The notes beneath the pieces are model-generated. The model was not told the origin of the DNA and did not search any database. It was given only the letters and a program-made list of their open reading frames with translations. From assembly GCA_000004695.1 (NCBI GenBank), contig CM000155.2, positions 2,976,001 to 3,040,000 of the forward strand: a DNA stretch of 64,000 bases, in the 5' to 3' direction. The translations under genes were made by a program, and so were the position numbers. Below, one piece after another: positions 20,240-46,549 of this stretch; within the stretch, counting starts at the first letter, position 1, and each line of letters begins with the position of its first letter. The DNA is from Dictyostelium discoideum. Its lineage: Eukaryota.

Positions 20240-20386
20240 CTATTAAAAAAAATAAAATAAAAAATAAAAAATAAAATAAAATAAAATAAAATAAAATAAT
20301 AATGATGATGATGATGATGATTTTATTAATAAAATGAATCAAAATTTCAAAAATGTGTATGTATTGAATATTATGAAAATATTTAC

Positions 20387-20717: not shown

Positions 20718-20748
<31 letters not shown>

Positions 20749-21466: not shown

Positions 21467-21501
<35 letters not shown>

Positions 21502-22069
21502 AAAAAAATTATTATTATATTTATTATTATTATTATTATAATTTTTTAAAAATTATAAAATATTTATTAAATTATTATTATTATTATTAATTAATAATTT
21601 ATTATAAATTTTGATATTTAATTTAATTTTATTTAAATTTTTAAAAATTAAACCATTGATTTTAAAAATAAGAAAATAAAATTATATATAAATAAATATA
21701 TATATATATAAAAATGTGTAAAAACAATAAATGAATATTTATTTTTTAAAAAAAAAAAAAAAAAATATTATGTATTTTATTTTATATCTTTTTTTTTTTT
21801 TTTTACTTATAAAAGATGATTTCCCATCTAACGGTCAAAAAAAAAAAAATTTGAAAAAAAAAAAAAAATAAAAAAAAAAAAAATTAAAAAAAAAAGAAAA
21901 AGAAAAAAAAAAAAATTAAAAAAAAAAATAATGGAAATTGACACACTATTAACTCAAAAATTTATTTTTTTTTTTTTTTATTATTTTTTTTTTTTTTTTT
22001 TTTTTCATTTCCAATCCAAATCACCACCATTCACGATAAATAATATATATATAAAAAAAAAATAAAAAA

Positions 22070-22890
22070 ATGAGAAGACAAACAGGTAGACAATTAGAAA
22101 ATGAATATTTAGATGAACAAGGTAAAGTAAGATTCAAAAAAAAAAAAAAAAAAACAAAAAAAAAAACAAAAAAAAAAAACAAAAAAAAAAAAAAAAAAAA
22201 AAAAATTCCAAAGAAAACCCTTGCTGTAACCTAATTTATTAATATTCATACTTTTCTAACTTTTTTTTTTCAAATAATAGAGCAAAAAGATGTAATAAAT
22301 AATTTATTAACAAATGATAAATCAACAAGTTTATTTTATAGGGTAATTATTATTTTTATTATTTTTATTATTTTTATTATTATTAAATTAGGAAGAAAAT
22401 AATTTTACTAATTTTTTTTTTTTTTTTTAAATTTTATTTTATAACTAATTAATTAAAAAAGAAATGTATTAGTATGGTTGGATTTTTTTGTGGAGTTTTA
22501 AAATTATTATGCGCAATATTACCATTTAATGTATTACCATTTGAACATTTAGCACATAGTACATTGAAGGGATCAGGTGTTTCAAGTTTTTTCATTGCTT
22601 GGTTGGAGTGGATTTCAGCATCAGCTTATATTGCAGGTGGTATTGGAATGTATCCCGATTTTGTTAAAGGTTTTATAAGAAAATGGATTATGTTTGCATG
22701 TATCGGTTTCACATCTTTCACCTCATTTGTTGTCTTAATTTTGAGTGGTAGTATTTTTGCCACCCTTTGGATCACTGGTGTCAATTGTATTTATCTTTTT
22801 GCTTGCCTTTATGTTTTCTCTATAACCTCAAATAGTCAAAGAGAAATTATTAATCTTCAAAAATTCCAATATCCTCATAAAAAAGCCTAA
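22070..22890 (+). CDS. small 4-TM membrane protein, hypothetical (3 exons: 22070..22121, 22281..22342, 22462..22890)
   Basis: Exon 1 is MRRQTGRQLENEYLDEQ with donor G|GTAAAG (phase 1). The 62-nt exon 2 (E)QKDVINNLLTNDKSTSLFYR lies between AATAG| and |GTAATT. Exon 3, KCISMVGFFCGVLKLLC..., has four hydrophobic segments. Only one phase combination avoids stops. Confidence 0.5.
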
Positions 22891-26116: not shown

Positions 26117-29542
<3,426 letters not shown>

Positions 29543-29942
29543 TGTTTAAAAAATAACAATAATAATAATAAAAAATAATAATAATAAAAAATAATAATAA
29601 TAATAGTAATAAAATAAATTAAATAAAATTAATCATATCCATAAATTTATTCTTTATTTAATTTTTTCATTTTTTGGGAATATATAATTTTTTTTTTCTT
29701 TTCAAAACAAATACAATTATTTTTATAATAAATCTTTAATAATAAGGAAAATTAAATTTATATTGGTTGTTAAAATGAAATATTATTCATTATTTTGGTT
29801 AACTTGTTTTCAATAATATTAATAAAAAAATATATATAACCACAATAGCCTATTTTTTATATTTTTCTTCATTATCTAGGTATTTGTTCAAACATTAATA
29901 AATTATTGGCATTAATTACAAATCTTGGTATTTAAAAAATTT

Positions 29943-29985
<43 letters not shown>

Positions 29986-30119
29986 ATTATAATAAATAAT
30001 AAATAAAAAAATGGTATAAAAACAAACTTTTTTTTTTTTTTAAAATCATTATCAAATACATTATAAAAATAAATATAAAAGTTATCTTTTTTCAAAATAA
30101 TTTAAAATTGGAATAAAAA

Positions 30120-30433
30120 ATGAACAAGGTATAATAATAATTTGAAAAAAACAAAAAAAATTAATTATTTATTAATTATTAATTTTTTTAATATAATAAA
30201 AGTTATTAAATTTATTAGGATTCTTAGTCGTATTAGTTTTTTGTGTTTTTACTGGTTCAAATGCTGAAGGTTTGGGTTCTTGTTCAAGTTGGCATGTAGC
30301 AAGATCTGGCTATACCTGTTGGGATATGGCATCTACATGTGGTGTTTCACTTCAACAATTCATGGGCACTAATAGCTTGTCCTCATATGATTGTGACTAC
30401 ATCCAAATTGGTAGAAAATATTGTTGTAATTAA
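30120..30433 (+). CDS. small secreted cysteine-rich peptide precursor, paralogue A (79 aa; exons 30120..30128, 30203..30433)
   Basis: A 9-nt first exon ATGAACAAG is followed by GTATAA. A 74-nt intron ends AAAAG|. Exon 2 is LLNLLGFLVVLVFCVFTGSNA | EGLGSCSSWHVARSGYTCWDMASTCGVSLQQFMGTNSLSSYDCDYIQIGRKYCCN. It has a signal peptide and a 58-aa mature region with 6 Cys. Codon usage is GC-richer than the surroundings. Confidence 0.55.
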
Positions 30434-31120
30434 TTTGGTATTTGAAAAAAATAGAAATATAATATTATCATATTATAACTATTATTATTAAATAAATATT
30501 ATTTTTAAGAATTTTTCTATCTATTAATTTTAAAAATTTTAATTTTATTTTTTTTACCCTTTGTTAAATAATATATAATAAATTATGTTTTATATAATTA
30601 GTTGTGAATTTTTTTATATAATTTGAAAAAAAAACTTTAAAGTTTTAAGTGGTTCCTTTTTTTTTTTTTATTAAAATAAAATAATTATTAAACATCTAGT
30701 TGAAAAATAAATGATAGTATTAAAAAGATAAAATTAGAATAAATTAAATTATTTACAAAAATAGTAAATAAAATCTTTATTTATTAGGAAATACCATTTC
30801 AAACAATAGCTACTATTATATTAGTGGTATTAAAATTTGTGGTAATTTTATTTTCCCAAATAACCAAAAAAAAAAAAAAATAATAACCACACCCATAATT
30901 AAATATATATATTTTTTTCTTAACTATCTGGGGATTTTAATTTTCTTTTTTTTTTTATTTGTATTTCAAAACTACCATTTAAAATATAATAAAAAAAAAA
31001 AAAAAAAGAAAAAAAATAGTATAAATAAAAAATTATAAAAAAAAAAAAAAAAATAAATCATTTTCCAAATTAAAATTCAATTTTAACATTTTTAATAAAT
31101 CAATAAAATTCTTTCCAATA

Positions 31121-31427
31121 ATGTGCAAGGTATAGTACTCTTTTAATATTTGTATATTAATATATATTATTAACTATAATTATTTTCCTGAAACAGTTAT
31201 TAAACTTATTAGGATTAGTAGTTGTTTTCCTTTTATGTGTTTTCACTGGTTCAAATGCTGAAGGTATGGGTTCTTGTTCAAGTTGGCATGTAGCAAGATC
31301 TGGTTATACCTGTTGGGATATGGCATCTACATGTGGTGTTTCACTTCAACAATTCATGGCAACAAATGGCTTAAGTTCAAATGACTGTAATTACATCCAA
31401 ATTGGTAGAAAATATTGTTGTAATTAA
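31121..31427 (+). CDS. small secreted cysteine-rich peptide precursor, paralogue B (79 aa; exons 31121..31129, 31197..31427)
   Basis: It has the same architecture as paralogue A, about 1 kb downstream. The protein is ATGTGCAAG|GTATAG...AAACAG|LLNLLGLVVVFLLCVFTGSNAEGMGSCSSWHVARSGYTCWDMASTCGVSLQQFMATNGLSSNDCNYIQIGRKYCCN. The mature peptides differ at only about 6 positions. Confidence 0.55.
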
Positions 31428-31849
31428 ATCAAAGTTTGAAATATTTATCATAAATCAATCATTAATTTATCATAATACCAATTTAAATTTTTCCATAAAC
31501 TGTTTTAAATAAATATTTTTCAAATTTTTTTATCTAATTCCCAATTTTTTTTATTATAGATTAATCTGTTTATTATTTATTTCTTTTAATGGATAGTTTA
31601 TTTATGAATTAATTTTGAAAGTAGGGATATTACTCAATTTTGATCTCAATTATCAAAAAAGAATTATAATTTTAAAATATAGTGTTATAAATTTTATTTT
31701 TATTTTTTTTTTTTTTTTATAAATTCAGTTTTAAAGGAGAATATGTTTGAAAGTAGTAGTGAATATGAATAAAATAAACTTTTTTAAGTTAATTTTCTCA
31801 ATTTTATTATTTCTCTAAGGAAATTGTTTTAGATCTTTTTAATTGCCCA

Positions 31850-32540
31850 AATCTTTTGAGTTTATTTTAAAATTTTTGGCTTCTTTTTTTATTCTTGAAG
31901 GGCTTTTAAGTATCACTTACTAACTTTGAGTGGTTTGATTGGTTTGGTTCGTATGATTCGGGCACGACCCTAGGTGGGTGGCGTTGATGATTGATACTGA
32001 CTTTTTTATTGTATTCTTGTTTGTTCAAACATTCTTAACAAAGAGCGAGCGAATTGGTTTGTCATCCAGAGTTTCTGAGCGGTTTGTCTCTGGTCAATGG
32101 AAACCTAGCTCTTTTCGTTCGCATTATATCAATCACTTGAAAACCACTTGAATTTCTATTGTTGAGCTGAAAGAAACCAATGTACAAATTTATTTATTTT
32201 TTTTATTTCATCTTCGTTTAAACATTCTACATATTAGTTGTATGTTTTTTTAGATAGTGCATATTGGTTTTGGTCTTTATTGTCGAACCTAATCTTTTCC
32301 ACAGTACCAAAGATGATTTTGTCGAGTTAATGATTTTGGTATTTTTCTAAATATACCTCTACCCGTGAAGAAGTAGCCTAGATATCTTACTGGGGTATCG
32401 GATATGGGGATTTTTAAATTATCAATGTTTGGATTACAAATAATTTTTGGAAGTTTTCGTGTATGTATCTGGGTAGAATGTGTTGAAGTGATTAAGTACA
32501 ATATCGATGAGAGATAGAATCAAAGGCTTTTTCCAAATCG
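31850..32540. mobile_element. non-AT-rich transposon-derived fragment 70 bp downstream of tRNA-Asp (possibly a downstream-targeting TRE3-type element or LTR remnant)
   Basis: The composition changes sharply, for example ggtttgattggtttggttcgtatgattcgggcacgaccctaggtgggtggcgttgatg. There is no convincing ORF; 32289..32501(-) has no recognisable domain. Its position matches the known downstream-of-tRNA integration window. Confidence 0.3.
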
Positions 32541-32571
32541 TAAAATTTTGCTTTTTTAATACCTCTATAGG

Positions 32572-32582
32572 AATCGAACACT
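32572..32582 (-). promoter_or_regulatory. ex-B box downstream of tRNA-Asp
   Basis: The minus strand reads GTGTTCGATTCCTATAGAGG about 30 nt 3' of the tRNA. It has the same GTTCGATTC core as the tRNA-Lys ex-B box. Confidence 0.45.
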
Positions 32583-32609
32583 CGATCTATTTTTTGTTTT
32601 TGGTAAAAG

Positions 32610-32681
32610 CTCCCTGTCCGGGAATTGAACCCGGGCCTTTCGCGTGACAGGCGAAAATCCTCACCACTAGACCAACAAGGA
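32610..32681 (-). tRNA. tRNA-Asp (anticodon GUC)
   Basis: The reverse complement is TCCTTGTTGGTCTAGTGGTGAGGATTTTCGCCTGTCACGCGAAAGGCCCGGGTTCAATTCCCGGACAGGGAG, 72 nt. It has an A box (TGGTCTAGTGG), a B box (GGTTCAATTCC), a CCTGTCACG anticodon loop and acceptor pairing with one G-U. It is very close to the universal eukaryotic tRNA-Asp. Confidence 0.9.
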
Positions 32682-32732
32682 TATTATTTGAAATTTTTGT
32701 TATAATGCCAAAAATTATATGCTCTTACAAAA

Positions 32733-33585
32733 AACAAACAACAACAACAATCTCTTTTTTTGATTATTTCATTTTTCATATAAAAAAGACTTAAAAAACA
32801 AATAAATAAATAAATAAACTATTTTAAAAAGCCATCTTTTTACTTTATTGTAATTTATTATTTGTTTCGTTTTGAGAATTTTGCGTAGCAAAATTTTCAA
32901 AAAAAAAGCAAAAAATAATCAGATCGAAAAAAACAAACAACAACAACAATCTCTTTTTTTGATTATTTCATTTTTCATATAAAAAAGACTTAAAAAACAA
33001 ATAAATAAATAAATAAACTATTTTAAAAAGCCATCTTTTTACTTTATTGTAATTTATTATTTGTTTCGTTTTGAGAATTTTGCGTAGCAAAATTTTCAAA
33101 AAAAAAGCAAAAAATAATCAGATCGAAAAAAACAAACAACAACAACAATCTCTTTTTTTGATTATTTCATTTTTCATATAAAAAAGACTTAAAAAACAAA
33201 TAAATAAATAAATAAACTATTTTAAAAAGCCATCTTTTTACTTTATTGTAATTTATTATTTGTTTCGTTTTGAGAATTTTGCGTAGCAAAATTTTCAAAA
33301 AAAAAGCAAAAAATAATCAGATCGAAAAAAACAAACAACAACAACAATCTCTTTTTTTGATTATTTCATTTTTCATATAAAAAAGACTTAAAAAACAAAT
33401 AAATAAATAAATAAACTATTTTAAAAAGCCATCTTTTTACTTTATTGTAATTTATTATTTGTTTCGTTTTGAGAATTTTGCGTAGCAAAATTTTCAAAAA
33501 AAAAGCAAAAAATAATCAGATCGAAAAAAACAAACAACAACAACAATCTCTTTTTTTGATTATTTCATTTTTCATATAAAAAAGA

Positions 33586-33590
<5 letters not shown>
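32733..33590 (+). repeat. tandem ~199-bp repeats (B-module array of the TRE5-A element), about 4.3 copies
   Basis: The string ...ACAAACAACAACAACAATCTCTTTTTTTGATTATTTCATTTTTCATATAAAAAAGACTTAAAAAACAAATAAATAAATAAATAAACTATTTTAAAAAGCCATC...GCAAAAAATAATCAGATCGAAAAAA recurs at 32733, 32932, 33130, 33329 and 33528. Confidence 0.85.
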
Positions 33591-33636
<46 letters not shown>

Positions 33637-33711
33637 GGAACCAAGTTAATTAGAAAATTTCCAGATTTTTAACTTTTTAAAGAAAAATAAAAAAGATAGA
33701 AAGAAAATAAA

Positions 33712-35046
33712 ATGAAAATCACAAACAACACCACAAATATTAAGCAACACAAATGCCTACAAAAAATAAGCGAAATTGTGGATAAAACTCAATTAAAAAA
33801 AAAACAATTCAAATACGTCATAAACATCAATCACGAACCAGACGATAAAATAAAAAAAGATTTAGAAAAAAGTTTGGACAAAAAAGATGTTTTAATCAAA
33901 AGTAATAATACATTCAAAATTCTCACAGACAGTATTAGTACAGTAATCTATTTTGTAAATATGTTTGATGCAGAATTAAAAGGACAATTTATAACCACTA
34001 TAAGACCAAAAAATATGTATACAGATTTTGATTGGTATAAATCACTCACAGAAATAGAATGGGTAATAGAAAATGAAGGATGTAAACTAATTAAATCAGA
34101 AATTAAAGGCGAAACTCTAATTATCAAAACAGTGAAAAGAGTCGTAGAAGAATTTGACACTATCATTGAACTAGACAATCTAACATTAATTGGACACTCC
34201 AACAAAGGATGGAGAGATCAAACCTCATTACCAGAAAATCAAGAAGAAAACAAAAATAAAAAACAATCAGATGAACAACAACCACAATCTACATCAGAAC
34301 AAATACCAAAACAAGGAAAAAGAACAATCATTATCCCACCAATCACATCCTCATCTAATGATAAAACATTTATGGCCCTAGATGATACAGCTCAAAAGGT
34401 AATAGAAGCATCACTAGAAAACGTAGATGAACTAACAAGAATAGAGAATGAGATCAATACACAATCGATAAACAATCAAGAAATTAAAACAAAATCAGAA
34501 AAACCTATCGAACCACCATCTCCATACAATACACCAATAAAACAACACGGCGAAACAAAGGGACTAACAACGGAAGAAAAACTTAGAGAGGCAAATGATA
34601 TCTTCGACTTCACCAGCCCAAACACTGATGCAATAAGAAAAATAGAATTCCCACTTTCAATCCCTTCAAATCAATGGTTCTTCTCCTCTCCAATAAAACA
34701 TATCATGAGTTTCAGCCCAACCTATGGTACACCATCGAAAATTATCGATTCACCAAGTAAATTGTTAAACACACCAAAAAAGAAACAACAAGACAAAACA
34801 AACAAGACCAACAAAACACCAGTCAAACCAAAATTGGGTGAATATGGACAAAAAAGCATAAAAACAAAAATGGATGAAGATATAGACAACTTCAACAAGG
34901 AAATTCTAAAACAAATCAATAAATCAAAAAACCCCACAAACACACAAGACCAACAACACAATGAACAAAGTAAAGATCAGTTAGAAGACAAAATAAACCA
35001 GAAACTTCAAAAGGTAGATAAAAATCTACCCCAAATAAAACTATAA
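33712..35046 (+). CDS. TRE5-A ORF1 protein (444 aa)
   Basis: A long ORF with A-rich sense-strand codon usage, typical of Dictyostelium TRE elements. It lies immediately 3' of the B-module array. Its 5' end is duplicated at 35400..35640. Confidence 0.65.
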   Translation: MKITNNTTNIKQHKCLQKISEIVDKTQLKKKQFKYVININHEPDDKIKKDLEKSLDKKDVLIKSNNTFKILTDSISTVIYFVNMFDAELKGQFITTIRPKNMYTDFDWYKSLTEIEWVIENEGCKLIKSEIKGETLIIKTVKRVVEEFDTIIELDNLTLIGHSNKGWRDQTSLPENQEENKNKKQSDEQQPQSTSEQIPKQGKRTIIIPPITSSSNDKTFMALDDTAQKVIEASLENVDELTRIENEINTQSINNQEIKTKSEKPIEPPSPYNTPIKQHGETKGLTTEEKLREANDIFDFTSPNTDAIRKIEFPLSIPSNQWFFSSPIKHIMSFSPTYGTPSKIIDSPSKLLNTPKKKQQDKTNKTNKTPVKPKLGEYGQKSIKTKMDEDIDNFNKEILKQINKSKNPTNTQDQQHNEQSKDQLEDKINQKLQKVDKNLPQIKL

Positions 35047-35342
35047 AGAAAAACACAATAAGAATAGGTGTTTGGAACGTCCAAGGATCCAACACCATCC
35101 AATCTGCCAGCATAATAAACACCGTTTTAGACAACAACAAGCTGGACGCAGCACTTCTAACTGAAACAAATATAAAAACAAATAAAATTTACTCAATAAA
35201 TCAACAATATAAAAACAAAATAACACACCACGCACCAATTGATAAAACAGGACAAGGGGTGTCACAAATCATCATCAACACCCGCAATAGAACTTCCTAA
35301 ACATCTCAAAAAATACAATAATTCACTCAGTACTTTCTATAA

Positions 35343-35399
<57 letters not shown>

Positions 35400-35403
<4 letters not shown>

Positions 35404-36230
35404 CAGTTAATCAGAAAAATAAAAAAGATAGAAAGAAAATAAAATGAAAATCACAAACAACACCACAAATATTAAGCAACACAAATGCCTACAAAAAATA
35501 AGCGAAATTGTGGATAAAACTCAATTAAAAAAAAAAACAATTCAAATACGTCATAAACATCAATCACGAACCAGACGATAAAATAAAAAAAGATTTAGAA
35601 AAAAGTTTGGACAAAAAAGATGTTTTAATCAAAAAGACCCTGTAAAAAAAAAAAAAAAATAAAATGAGATCTAGCATCTCAAGGAGAAGCAAATAATAAT
35701 TGCGTTATCCAATTCAAAAAAAAAATTATATGCTCTTATAGATGGGTTGCTCATACAGATGGGATAAAGCAAAATCTCCTCGGACATGTATAACCTGACC
35801 AATAAGTATCGCAACTAAAATCTCCGAAATGAGGGATTACAATACTATCATCGCGCGGGGGTTTTATTTATTATATTAATATATTTGTGGAAATCCATTA
35901 AAATATATTTCATATTAAATGTTTTAATCTATTAATAAATCATTAATGTTCAAAATTGGGCTTATTCTTAAATTTAATGGTCAGCATTAAATTGGGAATT
36001 TACTATAGATAAAAACAATTCTTTTTAAATTAGAGGAACTCTATTCTAAATCAATAAGTTTAAAATAGAGAATTCACCATAATATATAAAAACAGATATA
36101 TTTTGGTGTTTAGACTAGAAATTACGATATCAGTTTATTTTTTAGGTTCTCCATCTTATTATCAAATCGGTAATATTTGGATCAAGTCCTTTAATCCTCC
36201 ACCCTTTTTAAATAAAAAAAATAAAAAGTA
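35400..36230 (+). mobile_element. rearranged TRE5-A debris: duplicated ORF1 5' segment (35400..35640, followed by A-run) and a unique A-module-like 5'UTR segment (about 35700..36230)
   Basis: 35400..35640 is near-identical to 33660..33905. At 35717 the string aaaattatatgctctta, which also begins the element at 32712, recurs. It is followed by about 500 bp of non-AT-rich unique sequence (gatgggttgctcatacagatggg...gcgcgggggtt...). Confidence 0.4.
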
Positions 36231-36699
36231 ATACCATTTTCAATATATAATAAAGAGATTTAAATTCTTTTTTTTTTTTATTTTATAAAAGTAATAATAT
36301 TAAATCCTTTTTTTTTTTTTTATTTTATTTTTTATTTTTTTTTTAAACAATTCTTTAAATTTTAAACTTTAACAATTATAATAAAGAATAAAAAAATAAA
36401 AAAATTTTAATTCCAATAAATTATTATGGATCACCATTTTTATTATTAAAACTTTAATTTTTTTTTTTTTTTTTTTTTTTTTTATTCCTTTTTTCTTAAA
36501 AAGGTTAATTTTTTCTTTTGTAGATTCAATTTTTTTTTTTTTTCCACAAATATTATTACCATTTCTATAAAATTATATACCATAAATTATTAATTTGACA
36601 ACCTCTATATAACTATTGAGTTATATTTTTTATTTATTTTTTTTTTTTTATACAGGATTATTTATTTATTATAAATATATTTTCAGAGTTACTCTAAAA

Positions 36700-37130
36700 T
36701 ATTATTTATTTTAGATATTTATGAATTTTAGAAATTTTCATAAATGGACTTTTTCATCCTCCGATTTATTGTTTTACTTTAAATTGGAGGATTAATCTTC
36801 CAATTTAGTTTTAATTGAATTGGAGGATTACTCCTCTTTTTTAACCTTTGGTTAAATTAGAGGAGCATTCTTTTATTTTAACAAAGTTAAATTAGAGGAA
36901 TACCACTTTTTTTTACCTTAGGTTGGATTAAGAGGATTGTTACAATCCTTTTTTTTTCAAACTATTGGTTAAATTAGAGTGAAACCACTCAAAATATTCC
37001 CTAAGGTTTATTAAATATTCCCAAGGTTTATTTTGGGTTCCCTCAAAGAGGGATTTACCTTCAAATTAGATCCTAATTTTGGTAAAAAAAAAGTCCGATA
37101 ATCCTCCCTTTTATTAATAATTTTAAAAAA
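36700..37130. repeat. unclassified dispersed-repeat island with reiterated TTAAATTAGAGGA-like motifs
   Basis: The motif ttaaattggaggattaatc / aattggaggattactcc / taaattagaggagcattc / taaattagaggaataccac / ggattaagaggattgtt / taaattagagtgaaacc recurs at 25-45-bp spacing. Similar motifs occur at 35985-36060. Confidence 0.3.
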
Positions 37131-37334
37131 AAAAAAAAAAATAATAAATAATACATATTTAAATAAATAATAAAAGAAATATTTCATAAAATTAAATAAA
37201 AATATTTACACATAATAAAAAAAAAAAAAAACCGTTGTTCAAATAAGAACATAAAATTATTACATTTTTCTAATTGTTTTTTTTTTTTTTAAAAAGCTTT
37301 TTTTATTTTATAAAATATCTAAAAATGAGTCAAT

Positions 37335-38141
37335 TTAGAATGATTTTAAGAAACCTTTTTGTTGGGCTAATCTGTTGAGAGCAGCATCGGATTGACCATT
37401 GTTACGGAGGAAACCGCAGAAAGCAAAGATGGTTTGTTCACCATTGTAGATACCTTCAGCATTGACGTGACCAATGTTAATTTGGACGGAAGCGTGATCC
37501 TTGGCGGTGATTAAACGGTTGGTGGCAGAGCTAAATAATTTAAATTATAAAATAAAAAAATTAATAATTTATTCTCTTTTTAAACCAATTTTTTTATTTT
37601 TTATTATTTTTATTTGACATAGTAACGATGTGTAATAGTAAAAGTAGTAGTGATAGTTTAATTATTATCAATATTTTTGTGTTGTATTTTTAGTTGAATT
37701 GTTATGAAAAAAAAAAATAAAAAAAATAAAAGAATTTTGTTTGTTTTTTTTTTTTTTTTTTTTTTTTTCTTCTAAACAAATTCTATAAAAAATTATCTAT
37801 AACCTAATTTTATATTTTTGATCAAATTTAAATAATATTCTCTGTTTCTTGTTTTAAATTTTCTTATTTATCATAATTATTATTATTATTATTTTTTTTT
37901 TATTATTTTTTTTTTTTTCTGTCTCTTTTTTTTTTTTTTTTTATTTTATTTTTTTTTTTACGATTTTTTTTTTATTTTTTTTTTTTAATAATAATAATAA
38001 ACCCTGCTTTTGAATCCAATATAACTACCACCATCACTACCATTCTACTGTACTCTTCATTTACTTGTATTTAAATAAATAAATAAATAAAAATACATAC
38101 CACTTACGTGGGGTGTAGAGTTCAACGTTCTTGGAGTCCAT
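37335..38141 (-). CDS. rps21: 40S ribosomal protein S21 (2 exons: 38141..38101, 37530..37335)
   Basis: The protein is [14 protein letters not shown]|[64 protein letters not shown]. It aligns with human RPS21 ([31 protein letters not shown]...[29 protein letters not shown]). The GTATGT donor splits the Cys codon (TG|C). The intron is about 570 nt. Confidence 0.85.
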
Positions 38142-38536
38142 TTTATATGATATTGTTATAACTATGAAAGCAAAAAGAGAAAAAGAAAAATCAACAAAAA
38201 AAAAAAAAAATTTCTGTGAGGGTCGAGAAATTTTTTTTTTTTTTTGCAAAAAAAAAAAAAAATTATAAAAAAATTAAAAAAAATTGTTTTTTTTTTATAA
38301 AAAAAAATAAAACCGAATTTCGAAAATTGATCAAAAATTTTGTGTGTGACCAATCATTATTTTTTTTTATTTCTTTTTTATTTTTTTATTTTTTTTTCAT
38401 TTTTTTTTTAATTATTTAATTTTCTAAATAAATAAATAATTAATAAATAAAAAATATATGAAAATAAATAAATAAAATAAATCATTGATAGATCATTCAA
38501 AAAAAAATGGGCGATATTTAAAAGTGGTCTCGTACC

Positions 38537-38584
<48 letters not shown>

Positions 38585-38874
38585 AAAATAAAATAAAATA
38601 AAATTTTCTAAAAATAAAAAAAAAAAAAAAAAAAAAATAATAAAACAAAAAATTTAAGATTTAATCATTTACAAAAATTTCTTTTTTTTTTTTTTATTAT
38701 TTTTTTATTGATTATATTTTTTATAAACACTCATAAATTTGGCAATAAAAGCTTCTAAATGAAATATTGGCTTTGAACCAATTTGTGATCTGTGTTCCTG
38801 TTTTTTTATTTTTTTTTATTTTTTTAATAAATAAATAAAAAGTTAATAATTAATTATATAATTTTTTTTTTTTT

Positions 38875-39924
38875 TTAAAAAATAATATTTACATAATAAG
38901 ATGCCCAATGAATTATTTCAAATTTCATATTATGATCTAGTTTTTTAAAGATTTCTAATAATAAAGTTTTAAAGATTAATTCTGGAGGAATACAATGACC
39001 TAATAATTCGTAGAGTTTACCACGTACTATTGAAAGTCTTGCAGGTGATTGTTCCTCAAAGCAATCCTTAACGATTTGAGAGATGTAATTTTCCCAATCC
39101 AACAATGGTAATTCCGTAGATTGGAAAGGATATTGTTTTGCTTTCTGAGATTCCAATAACATAAGAGCGTAACGTAAATTGCCACCAGACTGTTTAGCGA
39201 CGTTTACAGCCAATTTCGAGGGCAAATCAAATTTTTCAGCGGTTGCCACTTTGGCAAGCACCTTTTCAATCTCCTCTTGCGAAGGTGCAGGCACCCTGAT
39301 ACCCAAACATCTCGACTTGATAGGGTCAATAACTTTGGCAGTCGAGTCGCAACATAAGATCAAACGACAGAATGTTGCATATTTCTCCATAGTTCTTCTG
39401 AGTGCATGTTGGGCGTCTTTCGATAGTTTGTCAACTTCATTTAAAATCACAATTTTAAAAGCGCCCAATGAGCCACTATCGATTGGTGGTGATTGTGCAA
39501 TCTCTTTAATAATGGTTTGAATTACAACACGATCATATGATCCTGCCTCACCTGGATTAATCTCTATATGATAATGACTACTAATCGTTGTAATCTGTAT
39601 ATTCTTACTACTTGTTGGATGTTTAAATGTTCTATGATCAATCTTTAATTTCAATGCATTTGGTCCATATATCTCTTGTAATACCGCTAAAATCCTTGTT
39701 TTTTTACCTGCTCCACTTGGACCATAAACTAATAAATGTGGAAAATCACCACTTTTAATCTGTAAATAAATAAAAATAAATAAATAAATAAATATATATA
39801 TATTTTTCGTTTTTTTTTTATTATTATTATTATTATTTACCATATTCTTTAAATTTATTGATATATCATTATGATAATCCATCTTATCTAATGATGTTGG
39901 TTTATATTTATCAATCCATAACAT
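38875..39924 (-). CDS. rfc3: replication factor C subunit 3 (RFC 38 kDa / yeast Rfc5 orthologue) (2 exons: 39924..39841, 39759..38875)
   Basis: The protein is MLWIDKYKPTSLDKMDYHNDISINLKNM|IKSGDFPHLLVYGPSGAGKKTRILAVLQEIYG...FKIVILNEVDKLSKDAQHALRRTMEKYATFCRLILCC...SRCL. It is collinear with human RFC3, including the Walker A motif, the SRC motif and YPF. The in-frame intron (GTAAAT...TTACAG, 81 nt) reads through in the ORF track as an Asn/Lys-rich insert. Confidence 0.85.
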   Translation of the reverse strand: MLWIDKYKPTSLDKMDYHNDISINLKNMVNNNNNNKKKTKNIYIFIYLFIFIYLQIKSGDFPHLLVYGPSGAGKKTRILAVLQEIYGPNALKLKIDHRTFKHPTSSKNIQITTISSHYHIEINPGEAGSYDRVVIQTIIKEIAQSPPIDSGSLGAFKIVILNEVDKLSKDAQHALRRTMEKYATFCRLILCCDSTAKVIDPIKSRCLGIRVPAPSQEEIEKVLAKVATAEKFDLPSKLAVNVAKQSGGNLRYALMLLESQKAKQYPFQSTELPLLDWENYISQIVKDCFEEQSPARLSIVRGKLYELLGHCIPPELIFKTLLLEIFKKLDHNMKFEIIHWASYYVNIIF

Positions 39925-39998
39925 TTTTATTTATTATATATATTTGTTTTTATTTTATTTATATATTATGTGTGTTTATGTAAAAATTAAAATGAAAA

Positions 39999-40029
<31 letters not shown>

Positions 40030-40351
40030 ATTTGAATTTAAGAAATTGGCGGGAGTTTCGAAATTTATCTTTTTTTTATTTTTTTATTTTTTTTTTTTTT
40101 TTTTTTTTTTTATTTTTCTTTTCTTTTTATTGATTCCATTATTTAAAGATTTAACTAATTATTTATTTTGATTTTATTTTATTTGTTTTTAGATTATTCT
40201 TTTCGGATCTAAAAAAATAAAAAAAGGTAAATATTCAATAAAAACTAAATTTTCCCAGAAATTTGAAAAAAAAAAACAATTTTCATTTTTTCAAAATTTT
40301 TTTTTTTTTTCTTTTATTGCTTTTTTTTAATTTTATTTTTTAAAATAAAAA

Positions 40352-40384
<33 letters not shown>

Positions 40385-40430
40385 TTCTAACATTCTTTAA
40401 AAATAATAAATAAATTAATAAATAAATAAA

Positions 40431-42565
40431 ATGGAAGAAGAAGAAATAATTGAACCAAAAGATTTTGAAAATGAAGAATCAGAAAATATCCAAATGGATG
40501 AAAATGAAAAACAGATACCAATTCAAACTACAAATGATCCACAAAAGTAATTTATTTAATTTTAATTTTAATTTTAATTTTAATACTAATATCTTAATTT
40601 TTTATATATAGTAAAAATATAATGAGAATTTTAGTTGCAACAGATAATCATTTAGGATATTTAGAAAGAGATCCAATTAGAGGTGATGATTCATTTAATT
40701 CATTTGAGGAGATATTAAAATATGCACATACATTAAAAGTTGATATGGTATTATTGGGTGGTGATTTATTTCATGATAATAAACCATCAAGATCATGTTT
40801 ATATCGTACAATGGAATTATTTAGAAAGTATTGTTTAGGTGATTCACCAGTTAGAATTCAATTTCTATCGGATCAATCTGTTAATTTTTCAAATCAATTT
40901 CATACAGTGAATTATGAAGATCCAAATTTTAATATTTCATTACCAATATTTTCAATCCACGGTAATCACGATGATCCAACTGGTGAGGGTGGTTTGGCAG
41001 CTTTAGATTTATTATCAGTTTCGAATCTAGTCAATTATTTCGGTAAAACTGAAGATATTGATGATATTACAGTCTACCCATTACTACTTGGTAAAGGTGA
41101 GACAAAAATAGCGATCTACGGGTTAGGTAATATTAGAGATGAGCGTTTGCATAGAACTTTTCAAAAGCAATCAGTGAAATTAATGAGACCGGTGGAATCA
41201 AAAGATGAATGGTTCAATATTTTAGTACTTCATCAAAATAGGGTAGCCCACAATCCAAAGAATTATGTTCACGAGAAGATGATAGAAAGTTTCATAGATT
41301 TCGTTCTATGGGGACACGAACATGAATGTTTAGTCAATCCACAGGCATCGTCAGTGGGAGAATTCCATATTTCACAACCTGGTTCTTCAGTAGCTACAGC
41401 TTTATCAGAGGGTGAATCAAAGGATAAATTTGTAGGATTGTTGGAGGTTTATAAAAATCAATTCCGTTTTAAACCATTCCCATTGAACACGGTTAGACCA
41501 TTCATTATGGATCAAATCATACTTGCAAATAGTAACATACATCCAACACAACAGAATGATGTAATTCAATGGATTGAGCAAAAAGTAGAATCAATGATTG
41601 AACAAGCCAAATTAAAATCTCAAGGTAAACCCAACGAATCAATGTTACCATTGATAAGATTAAAAGTTGATTATACTGGTTATAGTACTATCAATCCTCA
41701 AAAGTTTGGTCAAAGATTTCAAGGCCGTGTAGCAAATCCAAATGATGTTTTATTATTCCACAGAAAGAAACCAACCACTTTATCAAGTAAAAAACAAAAG
41801 GATGGTGGTGAATTGGATGTGAATTCAATCAAAGAAAAAGAAGAAGATAAAGTGAAAGTGGCCGATTTCATAAGTGAATTCTTGGGTAATACACCAAATG
41901 ATCGTTTACAAATTCTATCAGAGAATGATCTATTCAATAGTTTACATTCATTCGTTGAAAAGGATGAAACCGATTCAATATTGAAAATGGTTGATCTCTC
42001 TTTAAAATCGACTCAAAAATATTTAAATTCAAAAATCTCTTCAAAAGATGCTTACCCAGATTTCATTGCTAAATATATTGATGATAATTTCCCATTACCA
42101 CATCAAAATGTATCTTCGGTCAATTCAGATTTATTACCAATAAATAATCCAAATGAATTTGAATCAAATTTATTAGATGAAGATTCTCATGGTCATGAAC
42201 ATGGTCATAGTCATAATCATAGTCAAATGATTGATAATGATGATGATGAAAACATTTTAAATCAAAGAACAATTTTTAAATCACCACAATCAAATAAAAC
42301 AGCACCAACAACAACTACTACCACCACTACTACTACATCTTCACAAATTTCAACAAGAAGAAAATCTTCAACTCAATCTTCAACTCAATCTTCACAAACT
42401 TCAATTATAATAGATGATGATGATGATGATGATGAAATTAATGAAGATAATGATGATAATGATAAAGATTTTGAAAGTGATGAAGAGAAAACTCCACCAT
42501 CAAAGAAAAGAGGTAAAGTTAAACAAGTTGGTTCAGTTTCAAAAAGATCAAGATCAAAGAAATAA
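40431..42565 (+). CDS. mre11: double-strand break repair nuclease Mre11 (2 exons: 40431..40546, 40612..42565)
   Basis: Exon 1 is MEEEEIIEPKDFENEESENIQMDENEKQIPIQTTNDPQ, with donor AAAG|GTAATT in phase 2. A 65-nt intron ends TATATAG|, then N-KNIMRILVATDNHLGYLERDPIRGDDSFNSFEEIL...LLGGDLFHDNKPSR...FSIHGNHDDPTG...WGHEHEC follows. These are the Mre11 phosphoesterase motifs I-V. The tail is acidic/Ser-rich. Confidence 0.85.
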
Positions 42566-42650
42566 ATTGTATTATAAATAATATATAAATAAATTTTTTT
42601 TTTATTTTTTTTTTTTTTATTTTTTTTATTTTTTTTTTTTATTTTATTTT

Positions 42651-42925
42651 TTAAATAGAATCCCAATCAGTTTTAATATTATTTAAACTTAATTTATCCA
42701 TACTAATAGTATAAGAATAATGATTTAAAAAATAATCAGTTTGAACACCAATTGAAGGTATACAAAGTGGTAAATTATCAGAAGCATCAGCGATAACCAA
42801 GAATAATAATTTTGTATATCTTGGATAACTTGAAATTATTTTACGTTGATTTCGATCAAAATGAACATGATCAACTTGATCATAAAATCTAACTATTAAT
42901 TTTGGTAATGATTGTGATGATGATA

Positions 42926-42994
<69 letters not shown>

Positions 42995-44648
42995 GTAAAG
43001 AAGATTTTGATTGTTTTTCTGAAATGAAGATTGTAAAATTATGAAATTTAAAATAAGTGTTAATTGGTAAATCTACTTGATTACTTTTTTTAGGTTGAAA
43101 AACAGATTGAGCTATTAGATAATGATTGAATTTATTATTTTCAAAATTTTTTTCATTGTAAATAAATAATTTATGAGAAGAGATTGGAATATTTGGTTTT
43201 TGTTTTAATGAGTTTACAATTTGATTATATTTCTTTTGTTGAAAAAATGAAAATTCATTACTAATAATACAGCTTAGTCTATGAAGTAAACGAGATTGAA
43301 TGGTTGGTGGTAAACTATTATAGTATTTCAAGGGTACTCTAATTAGGGGTAATCTCAAATCACGAATATTATTTTTATGTTCATTGAGTTCTAAAATGTC
43401 ATTTAACATCTTTTGTAAAACTTTATCAGTTTGATCTTTAATCATTCGGATTGGAGTTAAACCACTAAGGAATTGTTTTAAATTTATAGTTGTTGATAAT
43501 GGTGATTCAATTGAAAACTCTTTGAAATCTCTTAGTTGATGACGTGTTTTATTTCTACTATAGGATACTGGATCGTCGTTGGTTGGATCATTAAAATATT
43601 GAATTGATCTTTCTGAACAAAAATCCAGTATTTCCAATTTCGAGAAATCTAATAATGGTCTCACCAATAGCACAGAGTGGGTATTTGAAATTTTGGTTAT
43701 TTTAGTCATGGCTGCTAGTCCATCCAATCCACTGTTTTTATTAATTCTTTGTATAAATGTTTCCATTTGATCATTTAAATTTGTTCCATAAAATATTAAA
43801 TTATTACCATTTCCAACAGACTCACTCATTAGTATCTCAATTCTTTGATTACGTAATGACACTTGTTGTTTACATCTTTGTTCATCAATTTCAACTACTT
43901 TATGTTTAATTTTAATAAAGTTTGAATTATTATCATTGTTGATTAATTGATTGATGATTTTACTTATGTATGGTATATCCTCGGCTACAGGATTTGTCAT
44001 TTTATGATCGATTGTAATCACTGTGATTTTTAATTTTCTATTTACATTGGCTGAATTCTCTCCAATACACCAATTCTTTAATAAATATAATAATACCATA
44101 CTATCACTACCACCAGATACACCAATAACTAATGTTGATTTATTACTAATAGTTAATGTATTCATAAATTCTTGAAATTTAAATTCAATCATTTTAGAAT
44201 CAAAGAAAATATCTGGTCTTGCTTTTGCTTCACTTATTTTTTCACTGTAATCATTACTATTTTTATTACTACCATTATTTTTATTTCCAAATAAACCAGT
44301 ATTTACAATTTTATTTGTTACACTTAAACTCATTAATTTTTTAATTTCTTTTAATTTATTATATTGATTGATATCAACTGGTAATCCAATTGTAGTTTCT
44401 TTTATTTTTTCATTTTTGTCAATACTAAAATTATCATTATCATTATTATTTTTATTATTATTATCATTATCATTATTATTGTTATATATATGTGTTGTTT
44501 TATTATTATTTATACCACTATTATTATTGTTATTATTATTATCATCATTAATATTATAAGTTGGTGATTTTGATGTAGTTGTTGAATAGTATGACACATT
44601 TATTCTATTCGCTATGGTATATTTTGGTAATTTAATTAATTTATTCAT
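42651..44648 (-). CDS. PP-loop ATP pyrophosphatase, tRNA(Ile)-lysidine synthetase (TilS)-like, with N-terminal extension and internal poly-Ser
   Basis: The 665-aa ORF contains TLVIGVSGGSDSMVLLYLL (PP-loop SGGxDS), then KLKITVITIDHKMTNP, matching the TilS VahVdHgLR block. The N-terminus MNKLIKLPKYTIANRINVSYYSTTT looks like an organellar presequence. A (GAT)30 repeat encodes about 25 consecutive Ser. Confidence 0.5.
42903..42992. repeat. (GAT)30 perfect microsatellite, coding poly-Ser on the minus strand
   Basis: Visible directly; uninterrupted. Confidence 0.95.
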
Positions 44649-44752
44649 TATTGATACACATAAATTTTTGATTATTTTTAATTTTTTTTAATCTTTTATT
44701 TTTTTTTTATTTTATATTTTATTTGTTTTGTTTGAAACTATTTTGCTTTTGT

Positions 44753-44796
<44 letters not shown>

Positions 44797-44872
44797 AATT
44801 TTTCCTGAAAATGATTTTTATAAAAAATGATAAAAAAGAAAAAAATTCACTAAAACAGTGACTTGGTTTTTG

Positions 44873-44906
<34 letters not shown>

Positions 44907-45202
44907 ATACCATTTTATACTTTAATTTTAAAATTTTATTCCAAAAATTATTTTAATATATATTTATATTTGGTTATCAACTAGAAAAGTAAAAATAAAA
45001 ATAAAATTAAAAAATAAAAATTTGGATATGTGGTCATCACAGAATTTAATTGTATAAAAAAAACTTTTTTTTCATTTTTTTTTTTTTTTTTTTTTTAATT
45101 ATTTTTTTTAAATTTTCAATTTTTTTTTTTTTTTTTTTTTTTAAAAATTTTTTTTTTTCTTTTGTTGTTCACCTAAATCATCATATAAAAAAAAATAAAA
45201 AA

Positions 45203-46245: not shown

Positions 46246-46549
46246 AATAATTTTTTAAAAAAAAAGAAATAAAAAAAAAATAAATAAACAATTATAATAA
46301 ATAAAATAATTTTTTATAAAAAAAAAAGAAAAACATATAGTCACATTATCCACACCCAAATGAAAGGCTTTTTTTTTTTTTAATATTGATTAGTTCCAGT
46401 GTAGTTAGTTTACCATTTATTTATTTTTTGTTTTTTTTTTATCATTTTCCATTTTTTTTATAATCTTTTTCTTTTTTTTTTTAAAAAAAAAAAAATAATC
46501 AAAATCATGATATTTTTAGAATAATCAATAATTTTTTTTTTTTTTTTTT

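What the first reader, a model, noticed from the sequence alone, without database searches (positions are those of the whole stretch)
32572..35400. tRNA-Asp with ex-B box and a head-to-head TRE5-A-type retrotransposon (short deletion form) carrying a 4.3x 199-bp tandem B-module array
The element begins about 30-50 bp upstream of the tRNA 5' end in inverse orientation. This is the position-specific integration behaviour described for TRE5-A/DRE. Its structure is a short 5' segment, about 4.3 tandem ~199-bp modules, ORF1, the first ~80 codons of an APE-type endonuclease ORF2, and a poly(A) tail. That resembles the roughly 2.6-kb TRE5-A.2 deletion derivative rather than the full 5.7-kb element. 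The tRNA also carries a downstream GTTCGATTC 'ex-B' box, thought to be an extra TFIIIC site.
Basis: partly seen in the sequence, partly recalled or inferred. Interest (0 to 1): 0.5.

Follow-up and report, generated by a model that had tools for sequence, protein, structure and literature searches.

The report
TRE5-A.2 retrotransposon beside a tRNA-Asp gene
This is an ordinary, already described Dictyostelium discoideum mobile element (the non-autonomous TRE5-A.2 retrotransposon) inserted 47 bp upstream of a tRNA-Asp gene.

Summary

- **tRNA gene:** tRNA-Asp(GUC) lies at 32609-32681 on the minus strand. An external B box, GTTCGATTC, lies 29 nt past its 3' end.
- **Insertion:** A 2,993-bp TRE5-A.2 element (32728-35720, + strand) sits head-to-head with the tRNA gene. 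The spacer is 46 bp. The element is flanked by an 18-nt target-site duplication, AAAAATTATATGCTCTTA.
- **Empty site:** A near-isogenic D. discoideum assembly has the same locus with no mismatches, one copy of the 18-mer and no element.
- **Anatomy:** 4.45 x 199-bp A-modules, an A-tract, a 290-bp B-module holding the ORF1 start, and an intact 444-aa ORF1. Then come 79 codons of ORF2 fused across a 3,133-bp deletion, a second A-tract, a second B-module, an 81-nt C-module remnant and an oligo(A) tail.
- **Corrections:** The repeated unit is the A-module (promoter), not the B-module. The "poly(A) tail" at about 35400 is an internal tract present in every copy examined.
- **Family test:** Published TRE5-A ORF1 primers match the window. 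Published ORF2 primers fall inside the deleted stretch. The residues of the C-module hairpin that were mutated experimentally are intact.
- **Array size:** Other copies carry 1.45 to 21.45 A units, so the array here is not unusual.

Verdict: already known, low interest.

The parts
32571..32579 (-). External B box (ex-B), GTTCGATTC, 29 nt downstream of the tRNA 3' end. It fits the published GTTCRAnYC motif.
   Evidence: PMC3159450: external B boxes lie about 41 bp downstream of 66% of D. discoideum tRNA genes. The motif is conserved at the same distance in the orthologous loci L010 and L011.
32605..32608 (-). TTTT run immediately 3' of the tRNA, read as the RNA polymerase III terminator.
   Evidence: Read directly. 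The terminator function is inferred.
32609..32681 (-). tRNA-Asp(GUC) gene, the integration target. Its internal B box GTTCAATTC is at 32622-32630.
   Evidence: ARAGORN; Rfam RF00005, 61 bits; published primer Asp(GUC)rev matches 32612-32632 exactly; B box located.
32682..32727 (.). 46-bp spacer between tRNA position +1 and the element, which places the insertion at position -47.
   Evidence: Coordinates. PMC5391098 names position 47 upstream as the primary TRE5-A integration site.
32710..32727 (.). 5' copy of the target-site duplication, AAAAATTATATGCTCTTA. The duplication is 13-18 nt, because the leading A's cannot be told apart from the element's A tail.
   Evidence: family D11. The sequence occurs once at the empty site, L012 5331-5348.
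32728..32728 (+). One extra C at the 5' junction. It belongs to neither the duplication nor the A-unit, so it is read as a non-templated nucleotide.
   Evidence: Extra nucleotides at TRE5-A 5' junctions are reported in PMC3159450.
32729..33588 (+). A-module array. Four complete 199-bp units (32729-32927, 32928-33126, 33127-33325, 33326-33524) and a partial fifth unit (33525 to about 33588) that runs into an A-tract. The A-module is the plus-strand RNA polymerase II promoter.
   Evidence: The 200-bp A-module and its promoter activity are from PMC3159450 and PMC5633606. The same unit occurs 1.45 to 21.45 times in other copies.
33589..33632 (+). Internal A-tract 1 (44 A) at the A/B junction.
   Evidence: It is present in all nine other copies, 23-42 nt long.
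33633..33922 (+). 5' B-module, 290 bp. It contains the ORF1 start codon at 33712.
   Evidence: Window 33588-33922 aligns to the 3' B-module of the TRE5-A.1 copy in L003 at 4958-5294, 98.2% identity. The 290-bp size and the ORF1 start are from PMC3159450.
33712..35046 (+). ORF1, intact, 444 aa. Published work identifies its product as the protein that binds TFIIIB.
   Evidence: Exact match to D. discoideum AX4 proteins (DDB_G0269094, DDB_G0293692 and others). Published TRE5-A ORF1 primer Rep-109 matches 34156-34184 exactly. No Pfam domain found.
35049..35300 (+). ORF2 remnant. It keeps 79 N-terminal codons of the endonuclease domain up to the deletion junction at 35283/35284, then is frameshifted (RNRTS) and stops at 35298-35300.
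   Evidence: L003 1764-4896 (3,133 bp) is missing from the window. In the full-length ORF2 the N-terminus gives Exo_endo_phos at E = 3.5e-4, below the curated cut-off, and RVT_1 at E = 2.9e-33.
35341..35401 (+). Internal A-tract 2 at the ORF2/B junction.
   Evidence: It is present in all nine other copies, 32-42 nt long, including where a full-length ORF2 precedes it (L003).
35402..35634 (+). 3' B-module. It lacks its last 21 bp or so because of the TRE5-A.2 deletion at the B/C junction.
   Evidence: families D7 and D8: identical to 33681-33901 apart from one extra A in an A-run. Alignment.
35635..35715 (+). C-module remnant, 81 nt, carrying the 3' stem-loop that is required for retrotransposition.
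   Evidence: One search shows a 70-nt deletion relative to TRE5-A.1. PMC3159450 reports a 72-bp deletion that leaves 87 bp. Counting C at 35715 as position 1, the published residues T15, C26, A35 and C38 are all present and all lie in predicted stems; MFE -11.3 kcal/mol, z = -3.1.
35716..35720 (+). Oligo(A) 3' tail, 5-10 nt. Its 3' limit is ambiguous with the A's of the duplication.
35721..35738 (.). 3' copy of the target-site duplication, AAAAATTATATGCTCTTA.
   Evidence: family D11.

Best explanation
Window 32728-35720 is one copy of TRE5-A.2. This is the non-autonomous, ORF2-deleted derivative of the Dictyostelium discoideum non-LTR retrotransposon TRE5-A (formerly DRE). It is inserted head-to-head at position -47 of a tRNA-Asp(GUC) gene.

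Layout: (A)4.45 - A-tract - B - ORF1 - deleted ORF2 - A-tract - B - shortened C - oligo(A).

How it works, with shown and inferred steps marked:
1. The A-modules are the RNA polymerase II promoter for plus-strand RNA (published).
2. Full-length copies nearly always begin at an A-unit boundary. This is shown here for 8 of 10 copies that retain A-units, whose starts fall within a 20-nt stretch of the 199-bp unit.
3. From that I infer that each unit carries an internal promoter that starts transcription at its own boundary. An array would then be a stack of promoters, and a daughter copy could inherit any whole number of units up to the parent's.
4. ORF1 protein, intact here, binds TFIIIB at the tRNA gene (published).
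5. ORF2 protein (endonuclease, reverse transcriptase, zinc finger) comes in trans from TRE5-A.1 copies (published).
6. ORF2 protein recognises the C-module stem-loop, nicks the target and copies the RNA by target-primed reverse transcription. This leaves the 13-18-nt target-site duplication and one extra 5' nucleotide. The duplication and extra nucleotide are shown; the process is inferred.
7. The insertion is recent. A near-isogenic assembly has the empty site with no mismatches in 22 kb of flank (shown).
8. Arrays probably grow by unequal recombination or replication slippage between identical units. The canonical 1.45-unit structure already supplies a 64-90-nt direct repeat that could seed this (inferred, not tested).
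For: Anatomy and boundaries:
- Tandem array of 199-bp units.
- Duplicated B-module (families D7, D8).
- 18-nt target-site duplication (family D11).
- Empty site in L012: window 27370-32727 matches L012 1-5348, and 35721-52581 matches 5331-22135, with 0 mismatches and one copy of the 18-mer.

Family identity:
- ORF1 is an exact match to D. discoideum AX4 proteins.
- Published TRE5-A ORF1 primer Rep-109 matches exactly; Rep-108 matches apart from a small indel difference.
- Published ORF2 primers Rep-75 and Rep-176 are absent from the window but present in the TRE5-A.1 copies in L002 and L003, inside the deleted stretch.
- The module sizes and the AB-ORF1-BC layout agree with PMC3159450.

Subtype:
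- A 3,133-bp ORF2 deletion and a 70-nt deletion at the B/C junction relative to L003. The paper reports a 72-bp deletion leaving 87 bp of the C-module.

Position and orientation:
- The 46-bp spacer fits the 47 +/- 3 bp window.
- Six other copies lie 45-50 bp from tRNA genes in the same orientation.

Other:
- The C-module hairpin is intact.
- The full-length relative has RVT_1 and a weak Exo_endo_phos match.
- A-unit numbers of 1.45, 2.45, 8.45 and 21.45 occur in other copies, all inside their own target-site duplications.
Against: - Nothing contradicts the identification.
- No named TRE5-A reference sequence was available. Database names for ORF1 are all 'hypothetical protein', so the link to the name TRE5-A rests on published primers, module architecture and published residue positions.
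- The endonuclease assignment is weak here (20.8 bits against a cut-off of 24.5; no PDB hit by sequence).
- My module boundaries cannot be mapped exactly onto the published ones. A canonical copy has 1.45 A-units, not 1.0.
- The extra 5' nucleotide is C, not the G most often reported.
- The promoter-stack and array-growth steps are inference only.
Confidence: 0.96

Rival explanations
1. There are two elements in tandem. A TRE5-A.2 would end in a poly(A) tail at about 35400, followed by a separate, 5'-truncated TRE5-A fragment made of B and C only.
For: - A 57-61-nt A-run at 35341-35401 looks like a tail.
- ORF-less A-B-C and B-C fragments do exist next to other copies: L006 735-1423, L008 8010-8523 and L007 8587-8902.
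Against: - No target-site duplication brackets 35400.
- The only duplication brackets 32728-35720 as one unit, and the empty site lacks exactly that unit.
- The same A-tract, B and C follow ORF2 in all nine other copies, including those with a full-length ORF2.
- AB-ORF1-BC is the published structure.
Confidence: 0.02
2. The insertion, or the size of its A array, is an assembly artefact: a repeat misplaced or mis-sized in the source assembly.
For: - The element is absent from the otherwise identical locus in GCA_054883475.1.
- TRE5-A is a high-copy repeat, and 100% identical 199-bp units are hard to count in short reads.
Against: - A perfect 18-nt duplication of a sequence that is single-copy at the empty site is the signature of real target-primed insertion, not of misassembly.
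- The position (-47) and orientation are canonical.
- Arrays of 1.45 to 21.45 units occur in an independent assembly.
Confidence: 0.02
3. The 199-bp array is a host minisatellite that was already upstream of the tRNA gene, and the retrotransposon inserted next to it.
For: The array is AT-rich, and its units are perfectly homogeneous, as in young minisatellites.
Against: - The array lies inside the target-site duplication and is absent from the empty site.
- The same unit heads TRE5-A copies at eight other, unrelated tRNA loci.
Confidence: 0.005

Closest known systems
TRE5-A.2 (formerly DREb), the non-autonomous derivative of D. discoideum TRE5-A
   Same: - AB-ORF1-BC layout.
- Large ORF2 deletion (3,133 bp here).
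- Deletion of about 72 bp at the B/C junction, leaving about 87 nt of the C-module.
- Intact ORF1.
- Insertion 47 bp upstream of a tRNA gene, head-to-head.
- Target-site duplication within or close to the published 10-16 bp range.
   Different: Nothing essential. This copy has 4.45 A-units rather than the minimal 1.45, which makes it 2,993 bp long. Its 5' end lies 7 nt inside the commonest start (AGATCGA...) and carries an extra C.
TRE5-A.1, the autonomous 5.7-kb element
   Same: The A, B and C modules, ORF1, the first 79 codons of ORF2 and the last 57 nt before the 3' A-tract are 98-100% identical to the L003 and L002 copies.
   Different: TRE5-A.1 has a complete ORF2 (at least 1,143 codons, with RVT_1) and a complete B/C junction. 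The window copy lacks both and must be mobilised in trans.
Tandem promoter monomers in the 5' UTR of mouse LINE-1 (from my own knowledge, not tested here)
   Same: Units of about 200 bp repeated in tandem at the 5' end of a non-LTR retrotransposon. The copy number varies between copies, each unit has promoter activity, and a truncated unit lies next to the body of the element.
   Different: The sequence, host and element clade are unrelated. For TRE5-A, no dependence of promoter strength on unit number was found in the papers I could read.
ORF-less TRE5-type short elements (A-B-C or A-C) seen at other loci
   Same: They share the A-units, the A-tract and the C-module with its 3' hairpin region. 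L011 2549-3199 sits 47 bp upstream of the orthologous tRNA-Asp with its own duplication. L006 735-1423 is another example.
   Different: They lack ORF1 and ORF2 completely, and their A-units are only 88-93% identical to the window's.

Membership tests
TRE5-A (D. discoideum tRNA-gene-targeted non-LTR retrotransposon) | Integration about 47 +/- 3 bp upstream of a tRNA gene (or other A/B-box RNA polymerase III target) | tested here: met
   The spacer 32682-32727 is 46 bp, so the first element base is at -47. The published window is given.
TRE5-A (D. discoideum tRNA-gene-targeted non-LTR retrotransposon) | Fixed orientation: the element's 5' end faces the tRNA 5' end, and the two are transcribed divergently | tested here: met
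   The tRNA is on the minus strand. The A-modules, ORF1, ORF2 and the tail are on the plus strand. Six other copies have the same orientation.
TRE5-A (D. discoideum tRNA-gene-targeted non-LTR retrotransposon) | Modular untranslated regions: a 200-bp A-module, a 290-bp B-module holding the ORF1 start and duplicated at the 3' end, and a C-module of about 134-137 bp at the 3' end | tested here: met
   The period is 199 bp. The duplicated segment 33633-33922 is 290 bp and contains the ATG at 33712. The C-module is about 139 nt in the full-length copy L003 and 81 nt here.
TRE5-A (D. discoideum tRNA-gene-targeted non-LTR retrotransposon) | Sequence identity to published TRE5-A sequences | tested here: met
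   ORF1 primer Rep-109 matches exactly, and Rep-108 matches apart from a small indel difference. The C-module residues T15, C26, A35 and C38 are as published. No full reference sequence was available for alignment.
TRE5-A (D. discoideum tRNA-gene-targeted non-LTR retrotransposon) | Hallmarks of target-primed reverse transcription: target-site duplication, A-rich 3' end, frequent extra 5' nucleotide | tested here: met
   Duplication of 13-18 nt, confirmed by the empty site. A tail of 5-10 nt. One extra C at 32728.
TRE5-A (D. discoideum tRNA-gene-targeted non-LTR retrotransposon) | ORF2 with endonuclease (APE), reverse transcriptase and zinc-finger domains | tested here: inconclusive
   Only 79 N-terminal codons remain in the window. 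The full-length relative in L003 has RVT_1 at E = 2.9e-33. Its Exo_endo_phos match is at E = 3.5e-4, below Pfam's cut-off. A CxxC...HxxxxC motif is visible near its C-terminus.
TRE5-A.2 subtype | Large internal ORF2 deletion giving the AB-ORF1-BC structure | tested here: met
   L003 1764-4896 (3,133 bp) is absent. The junction is at 35283/35284. The ORF2 primers fall inside the deleted stretch.
TRE5-A.2 subtype | A 72-bp deletion at the B/C junction that leaves the 3'-terminal 87 bp or so of the C-module | tested here: met
   70 alignment columns are missing relative to L003. The remnant is 81 nt plus a tail of 5-10 A. A-run lengths vary between copies, which accounts for the small differences from the published figures.
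TRE5-A.2 subtype | Mobilised in trans by TRE5-A.1 ORF2 protein; retrotransposition-competent | not testable with these tools
   This is published. Here it is supported only indirectly, by the intact ORF1 and C hairpin and by the insertion polymorphism against a 0-mismatch background.

The most novel reading that the evidence does not exclude
The number of A-modules may be a fast-evolving, functionally meaningful trait rather than neutral slippage. It ranges from 1.45 to 21.45 units among copies with identical ORF1 protein. The two copies identical to the window's element outside the array and homopolymer runs carry 8.45 and 21.45 units. Long arrays might mark the currently active master copies, for instance through stronger or silencing-resistant promoter stacks. 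Arrays might also be reshaped during retrotransposition itself, through initiation at internal units or through reverse-transcriptase template switching between units.
Probability: 0.12. Interest if true: 0.35.

Novelty: already known. Interest (0 to 1): 0.1.

Why it matters
It matters little beyond correct annotation. TRE5-A and TRE5-A.2, their modules, the tRNA-gene targeting and the external B box have been described since about 1990-2011. Multiple A-modules were, as I recall, already noted in 1992.

The useful outputs are:
- Corrected boundaries (32728-35720) and module names.
- A demonstration, from an empty site in a 0-mismatch background, that this copy is a very recent insertion. This fits the known ongoing activity of TRE5-A in laboratory strains.
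- A small survey showing that A-module arrays reach at least 21 units in a long-read assembly.

Tried and rejected
- **Rfam.** The whole window at gathering threshold, and 35600-36400 at E <= 1, gave only the two tRNAs. Nothing matched the GC-richer 130 bp next to the insertion.
- **Pfam on ORF1 and on the 83-aa ORF2 remnant.** No meaningful hit. ORF1 has no known domain, as the literature says.
- **PDB sequence search with the ORF2 N-terminus.** Only chance hits.
- **Exact look-up of the 647-aa MRE11 reading frame.** Not on record, because the annotated gene product is longer. I reached the orthologous loci through a homology search and cluster members instead.
- **Papers not held in the library.** These were Glockner 2001, Winckler 1998, Siol 2006 and Marschalek 1992. 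The statement that multiple A-modules were described in 1992 therefore rests on my memory.
- **Full-text searches for multiple or tandem A-modules.** Nothing found.
- **Three alternative readings.** I considered and rejected two tandem elements, a host minisatellite and an assembly artefact. See the rival explanations.
Full report
**What is in the sequence**

ARAGORN and Rfam both find a tRNA-Asp(GUC) gene at 32609-32681 on the minus strand. A published D. discoideum primer, Asp(GUC)rev, matches it exactly at 32612-32632. A TTTT run follows the tRNA 3' end directly. The motif GTTCGATTC lies 29 nt further downstream, at 32571-32579 on the tRNA strand.

This motif fits the published external B box, GTTCRAnYC, which lies about 41 bp downstream of 66% of D. 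discoideum tRNA genes (PMC3159450). The motif is not enriched in the window as a whole (7 found, 4.75 expected). However, both tRNA genes of the window have it about 30 nt downstream on their own strand. It is also conserved at the same spot in two diverged orthologous loci.

**The element and its true boundaries**

Tandem Repeats Finder reports a 199-bp unit repeated 4.5 times at 32729-33614, with 99% matches and a score of 1737. The four full units are 100% identical. The fifth unit breaks off after about 64 nt into a 44-nt A-tract (33589-33632).

After the A-tract comes a segment holding the ATG of a 444-aa ORF (33712-35046). Next is a reading frame beginning KNTIRIGVWNVQGS..., and then an A-run at 35341-35401.

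The repeat search shows that 35413-35634 repeats 33681-33901. The two segments are identical apart from one extra A in an A-run (families D7 and D8). It also shows an 18-nt direct repeat, AAAAATTATATGCTCTTA, at 32710-32727 and 35721-35738 (family D11). The element therefore runs from 32728 to 35720, which is 2,993 bp.

**Proof from an empty site**

I took the neighbouring MRE11 gene and found its annotated AX4 protein. With that protein I fetched the same locus from another D. discoideum assembly, GCA_054883475.1 (locus L012).

- Window 27370-32727 aligns to L012 1-5348.
- Window 35721-52581 aligns to L012 5331-22135.
- There are no mismatches. The only differences are gaps, which I take to be run-length differences but did not inspect.
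- L012 carries the 18-mer once, followed directly by TAGATGGGTTGCTC....

So 32728-35720 is one insertion event with a target-site duplication of 13-18 nt. The leading A's of the duplication cannot be told apart from the element's tail. The published range is 10-16 bp. The 0-mismatch background shows the insertion is very recent.

Two more distant D. discoideum assemblies (L010 and L011, about 87-90% identical over the 2-5-kb stretches flanking the tRNA gene) also lack this element. L011 has different TRE5-type insertions at the same tRNA gene. One is an ORF-less A(2.45)-A-tract-C element, 47 bp upstream, with its own duplication GCTTTCATTACAAA. The site has therefore been hit independently in different lineages.

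**Identification**

- The ORF1 protein is an exact match to several D. discoideum AX4 proteins (DDB_G0269094, DDB_G0293692 and others). All are named 'hypothetical'.
- The link to the name TRE5-A comes from published sequences. The TRE5-A ORF1 qPCR primer Rep-109 matches 34156-34184 exactly. Rep-108 matches at 33816-33843, and again in the 3' B-module, apart from a small indel difference.
- The TRE5-A ORF2 primers Rep-75 and Rep-176 are absent from the window. They are present in full-length copies in L002 and L003, inside the stretch that the window lacks.
- The published architecture is AB-ORF1/ORF2-BC. A is 200 bp and is the plus-strand promoter. B is 290 bp, defines the ORF1 start and is duplicated in the 3' UTR. 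C is 134-137 bp and defines the 3' end. TRE5-A.2 is AB-ORF1-BC with a large ORF2 deletion, plus a 72-bp BC deletion that leaves 87 bp of C (PMC3159450).
- Against the TRE5-A.1 copy in L003, the window lacks L003 1764-4896. That is 3,133 bp, so the deletion causes a frameshift. The junction is at 35283/35284. The window also lacks 70 nt at the B/C junction.
- The segment duplicated at the 3' end of TRE5-A.1 corresponds to window 33633-33922, which is exactly 290 bp once the A-tract is excluded.

The 199-bp repeat is therefore the A-module, not the B-module.

**The 3' end**

I counted the last C of ...CCAATTC (35715) as position 1. On that numbering the four residues mutated in the published hairpin experiments (T15, C26, A35, C38) are all present. 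In the predicted fold of the last 54 nt they lie in two stems, consistent with the published stems I and III. The minimum free energy is -11.3 kcal/mol with z = -3.1, and none of 200 shuffles folded as well. The structure reported as essential for retrotransposition is intact.

**ORF2**

Only 79 codons remain, followed by five out-of-frame codons and a stop. In the full-length relative the frame stays open for 1,143 codons. It has RVT_1 at E = 2.9e-33. The N-terminal Exo_endo_phos match is weak (E = 3.5e-4, 20.8 bits, below the 24.5-bit cut-off), and there was no PDB hit by sequence. The APE assignment therefore rests mainly on the literature.

**The A-tracts**

Both internal A-tracts are present in all nine other copies examined. 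They are 23-42 nt long at the A/B junction and 32-42 nt at the ORF2/B junction. The window has 44 and 57. Neither is a tail. The real tail is 5-10 A.

**Is the A-module array unusual?**

It is not. I fetched nine other genomic places that encode the identical ORF1 protein and mapped the modules in each.

| A-unit count | Loci |
|---|---|
| 0 (5'-truncated in B) | L008 |
| 1.45 | L004, L005, L009 |
| 2.45 | second element in L002 (a TRE5-A.1) |
| 5'-truncated arrays starting at unit positions 14 and 50 | L002, L003 |
| 4.45 | the window |
| 8.45 | L001, L007 |
| 21.45 | L006 |

The canonical 5' region is thus one full unit plus a 0.45 partial unit. The arrays in L001, L006 and L007 lie inside their own target-site duplications. 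Six of the copies lie 45-50 bp from tRNA genes (His, Val, Ser, Val, Ala, Gly) in the same orientation.

The 5' ends are not random. Of the ten copies that retain A-units, eight begin between 19 nt before and 1 nt after the unit boundary. Four of these begin G+AGATCGA, one TCAGATCGA and one CAAAAAATAATCAGATCGA. The window begins with an extra C followed by unit position 1, and L001 begins at about position 1. Random truncation would rarely place eight of ten ends within 20 nt of a 199-nt unit. By my rough binomial estimate the chance is about 4e-7.

I infer that each unit directs initiation at its own boundary. An array would then be a stack of promoters, and daughters could inherit any number of units up to the parent's. 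Outside the array and the homopolymer runs, the window's element is 100% identical to L001 (8.45 units) and L006 (21.45 units). This is compatible with descent from a master copy with a long array. Growth of arrays by unequal exchange or slippage is plausible but untested.

From memory, Marschalek et al. 1992 (Mol Cell Biol 12:229) already described the tRNA-proximal end of DRE as 'one or multiple A modules followed by a single B module'. That paper is not in the library, and the papers I could read do not mention the point.

**Mechanism**

The published steps are these. [quoted passage not shown] ORF1 protein interacts with TFIIIB. TRE5-A.2 is mobilised in trans by ORF2 protein from TRE5-A.1. 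The C-module is essential. Integration is at position -47, just outside the TFIIIB footprint.

Shown here for this copy are the -47 position, the orientation, the duplication, an extra 5' nucleotide, an intact ORF1, an intact C hairpin and a recent origin. The insertion process itself, target-primed reverse transcription, is inferred.

**Verdict**

The finding is a correct family call with a wrong module name and a wrong 3' boundary. It is a known element in a known position, and interest is low.

Noticed in passing
window 31700-32556, minus strand: A 5'-truncated, internally deleted non-LTR retrotransposon fragment lies about 50 bp downstream of the tRNA-Asp gene, just past the external B box, on the same strand as the tRNA. 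It keeps reverse-transcriptase motifs (KFYDLEKAFDSISH, VRYLGYFF) and ends in an A-run near 31700-31720. It is 72% identical in DNA to 1,059-aa RVT_1 ORFs in L008 and L009 and does not match TRE5-A.1. By position it looks like a TRE3-type element, but the family was not determined. It is present in L012; in L010 and L011 only about 110 bp match, in inverted orientation.
   Followed up: partly
window 35739-35868: A 130-bp stretch, GC-richer than its surroundings, lies directly beyond the 3' target-site duplication and ends in GCGCGGGGGTTTT. It has no Rfam match even at E <= 1. It is present in the near-isogenic L012 but is replaced by other sequence in L010 and L011. It could be a small RNA gene or the remnant of an older insertion. 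Unexplained.
   Followed up: partly
L012 5331-5348 (GCA_054883475.1, JBTAPE010000034.1): This is the empty site for the window's TRE5-A.2, within 22 kb of flank that has no mismatches. The insertion is therefore a polymorphism between near-isogenic D. discoideum genomes.
   Followed up: yes
L011 2549-3199 and 3214-4652: In another D. discoideum strain the orthologous tRNA-Asp gene carries an ORF-less A(2.45)-A-tract-C element. It sits 47 bp upstream and has the duplication GCTTTCATTACAAA. It is followed by a 5'-truncated TRE5-type ORF2 tail with a zinc-finger motif, a long (AAT)n run and a C-module. These are independent hits on the same target.
   Followed up: partly
L006 1627-7993: A TRE5-A.2 copy with 21.45 tandem A-modules (about 4.3 kb of promoter repeats) lies inside the duplication GTACGTTATTATCTA, 48 bp from a tRNA-Ala gene. 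L001 and L007 each have 8.45 units.
   Followed up: partly
window 9395-9510: tRNA-Lys(CTT) on the plus strand has its own external B box, GTTCGATTC, at 9502-9510, about 32 nt past its 3' end. No TRE5-A modules were detected nearby.
   Followed up: partly
window 30160-30433 and 31156-31427: Two paralogous segments, 87% identical, appear to be small intron-containing genes lying between the upstream gene and the tRNA locus.
   Followed up: no
L010 4065-4150 and 4320-4403: In a third strain the region upstream of the orthologous tRNA-Asp gene holds a different insert of about 0.9 kb, with a direct repeat of about 85 nt. It was not identified.
   Followed up: no
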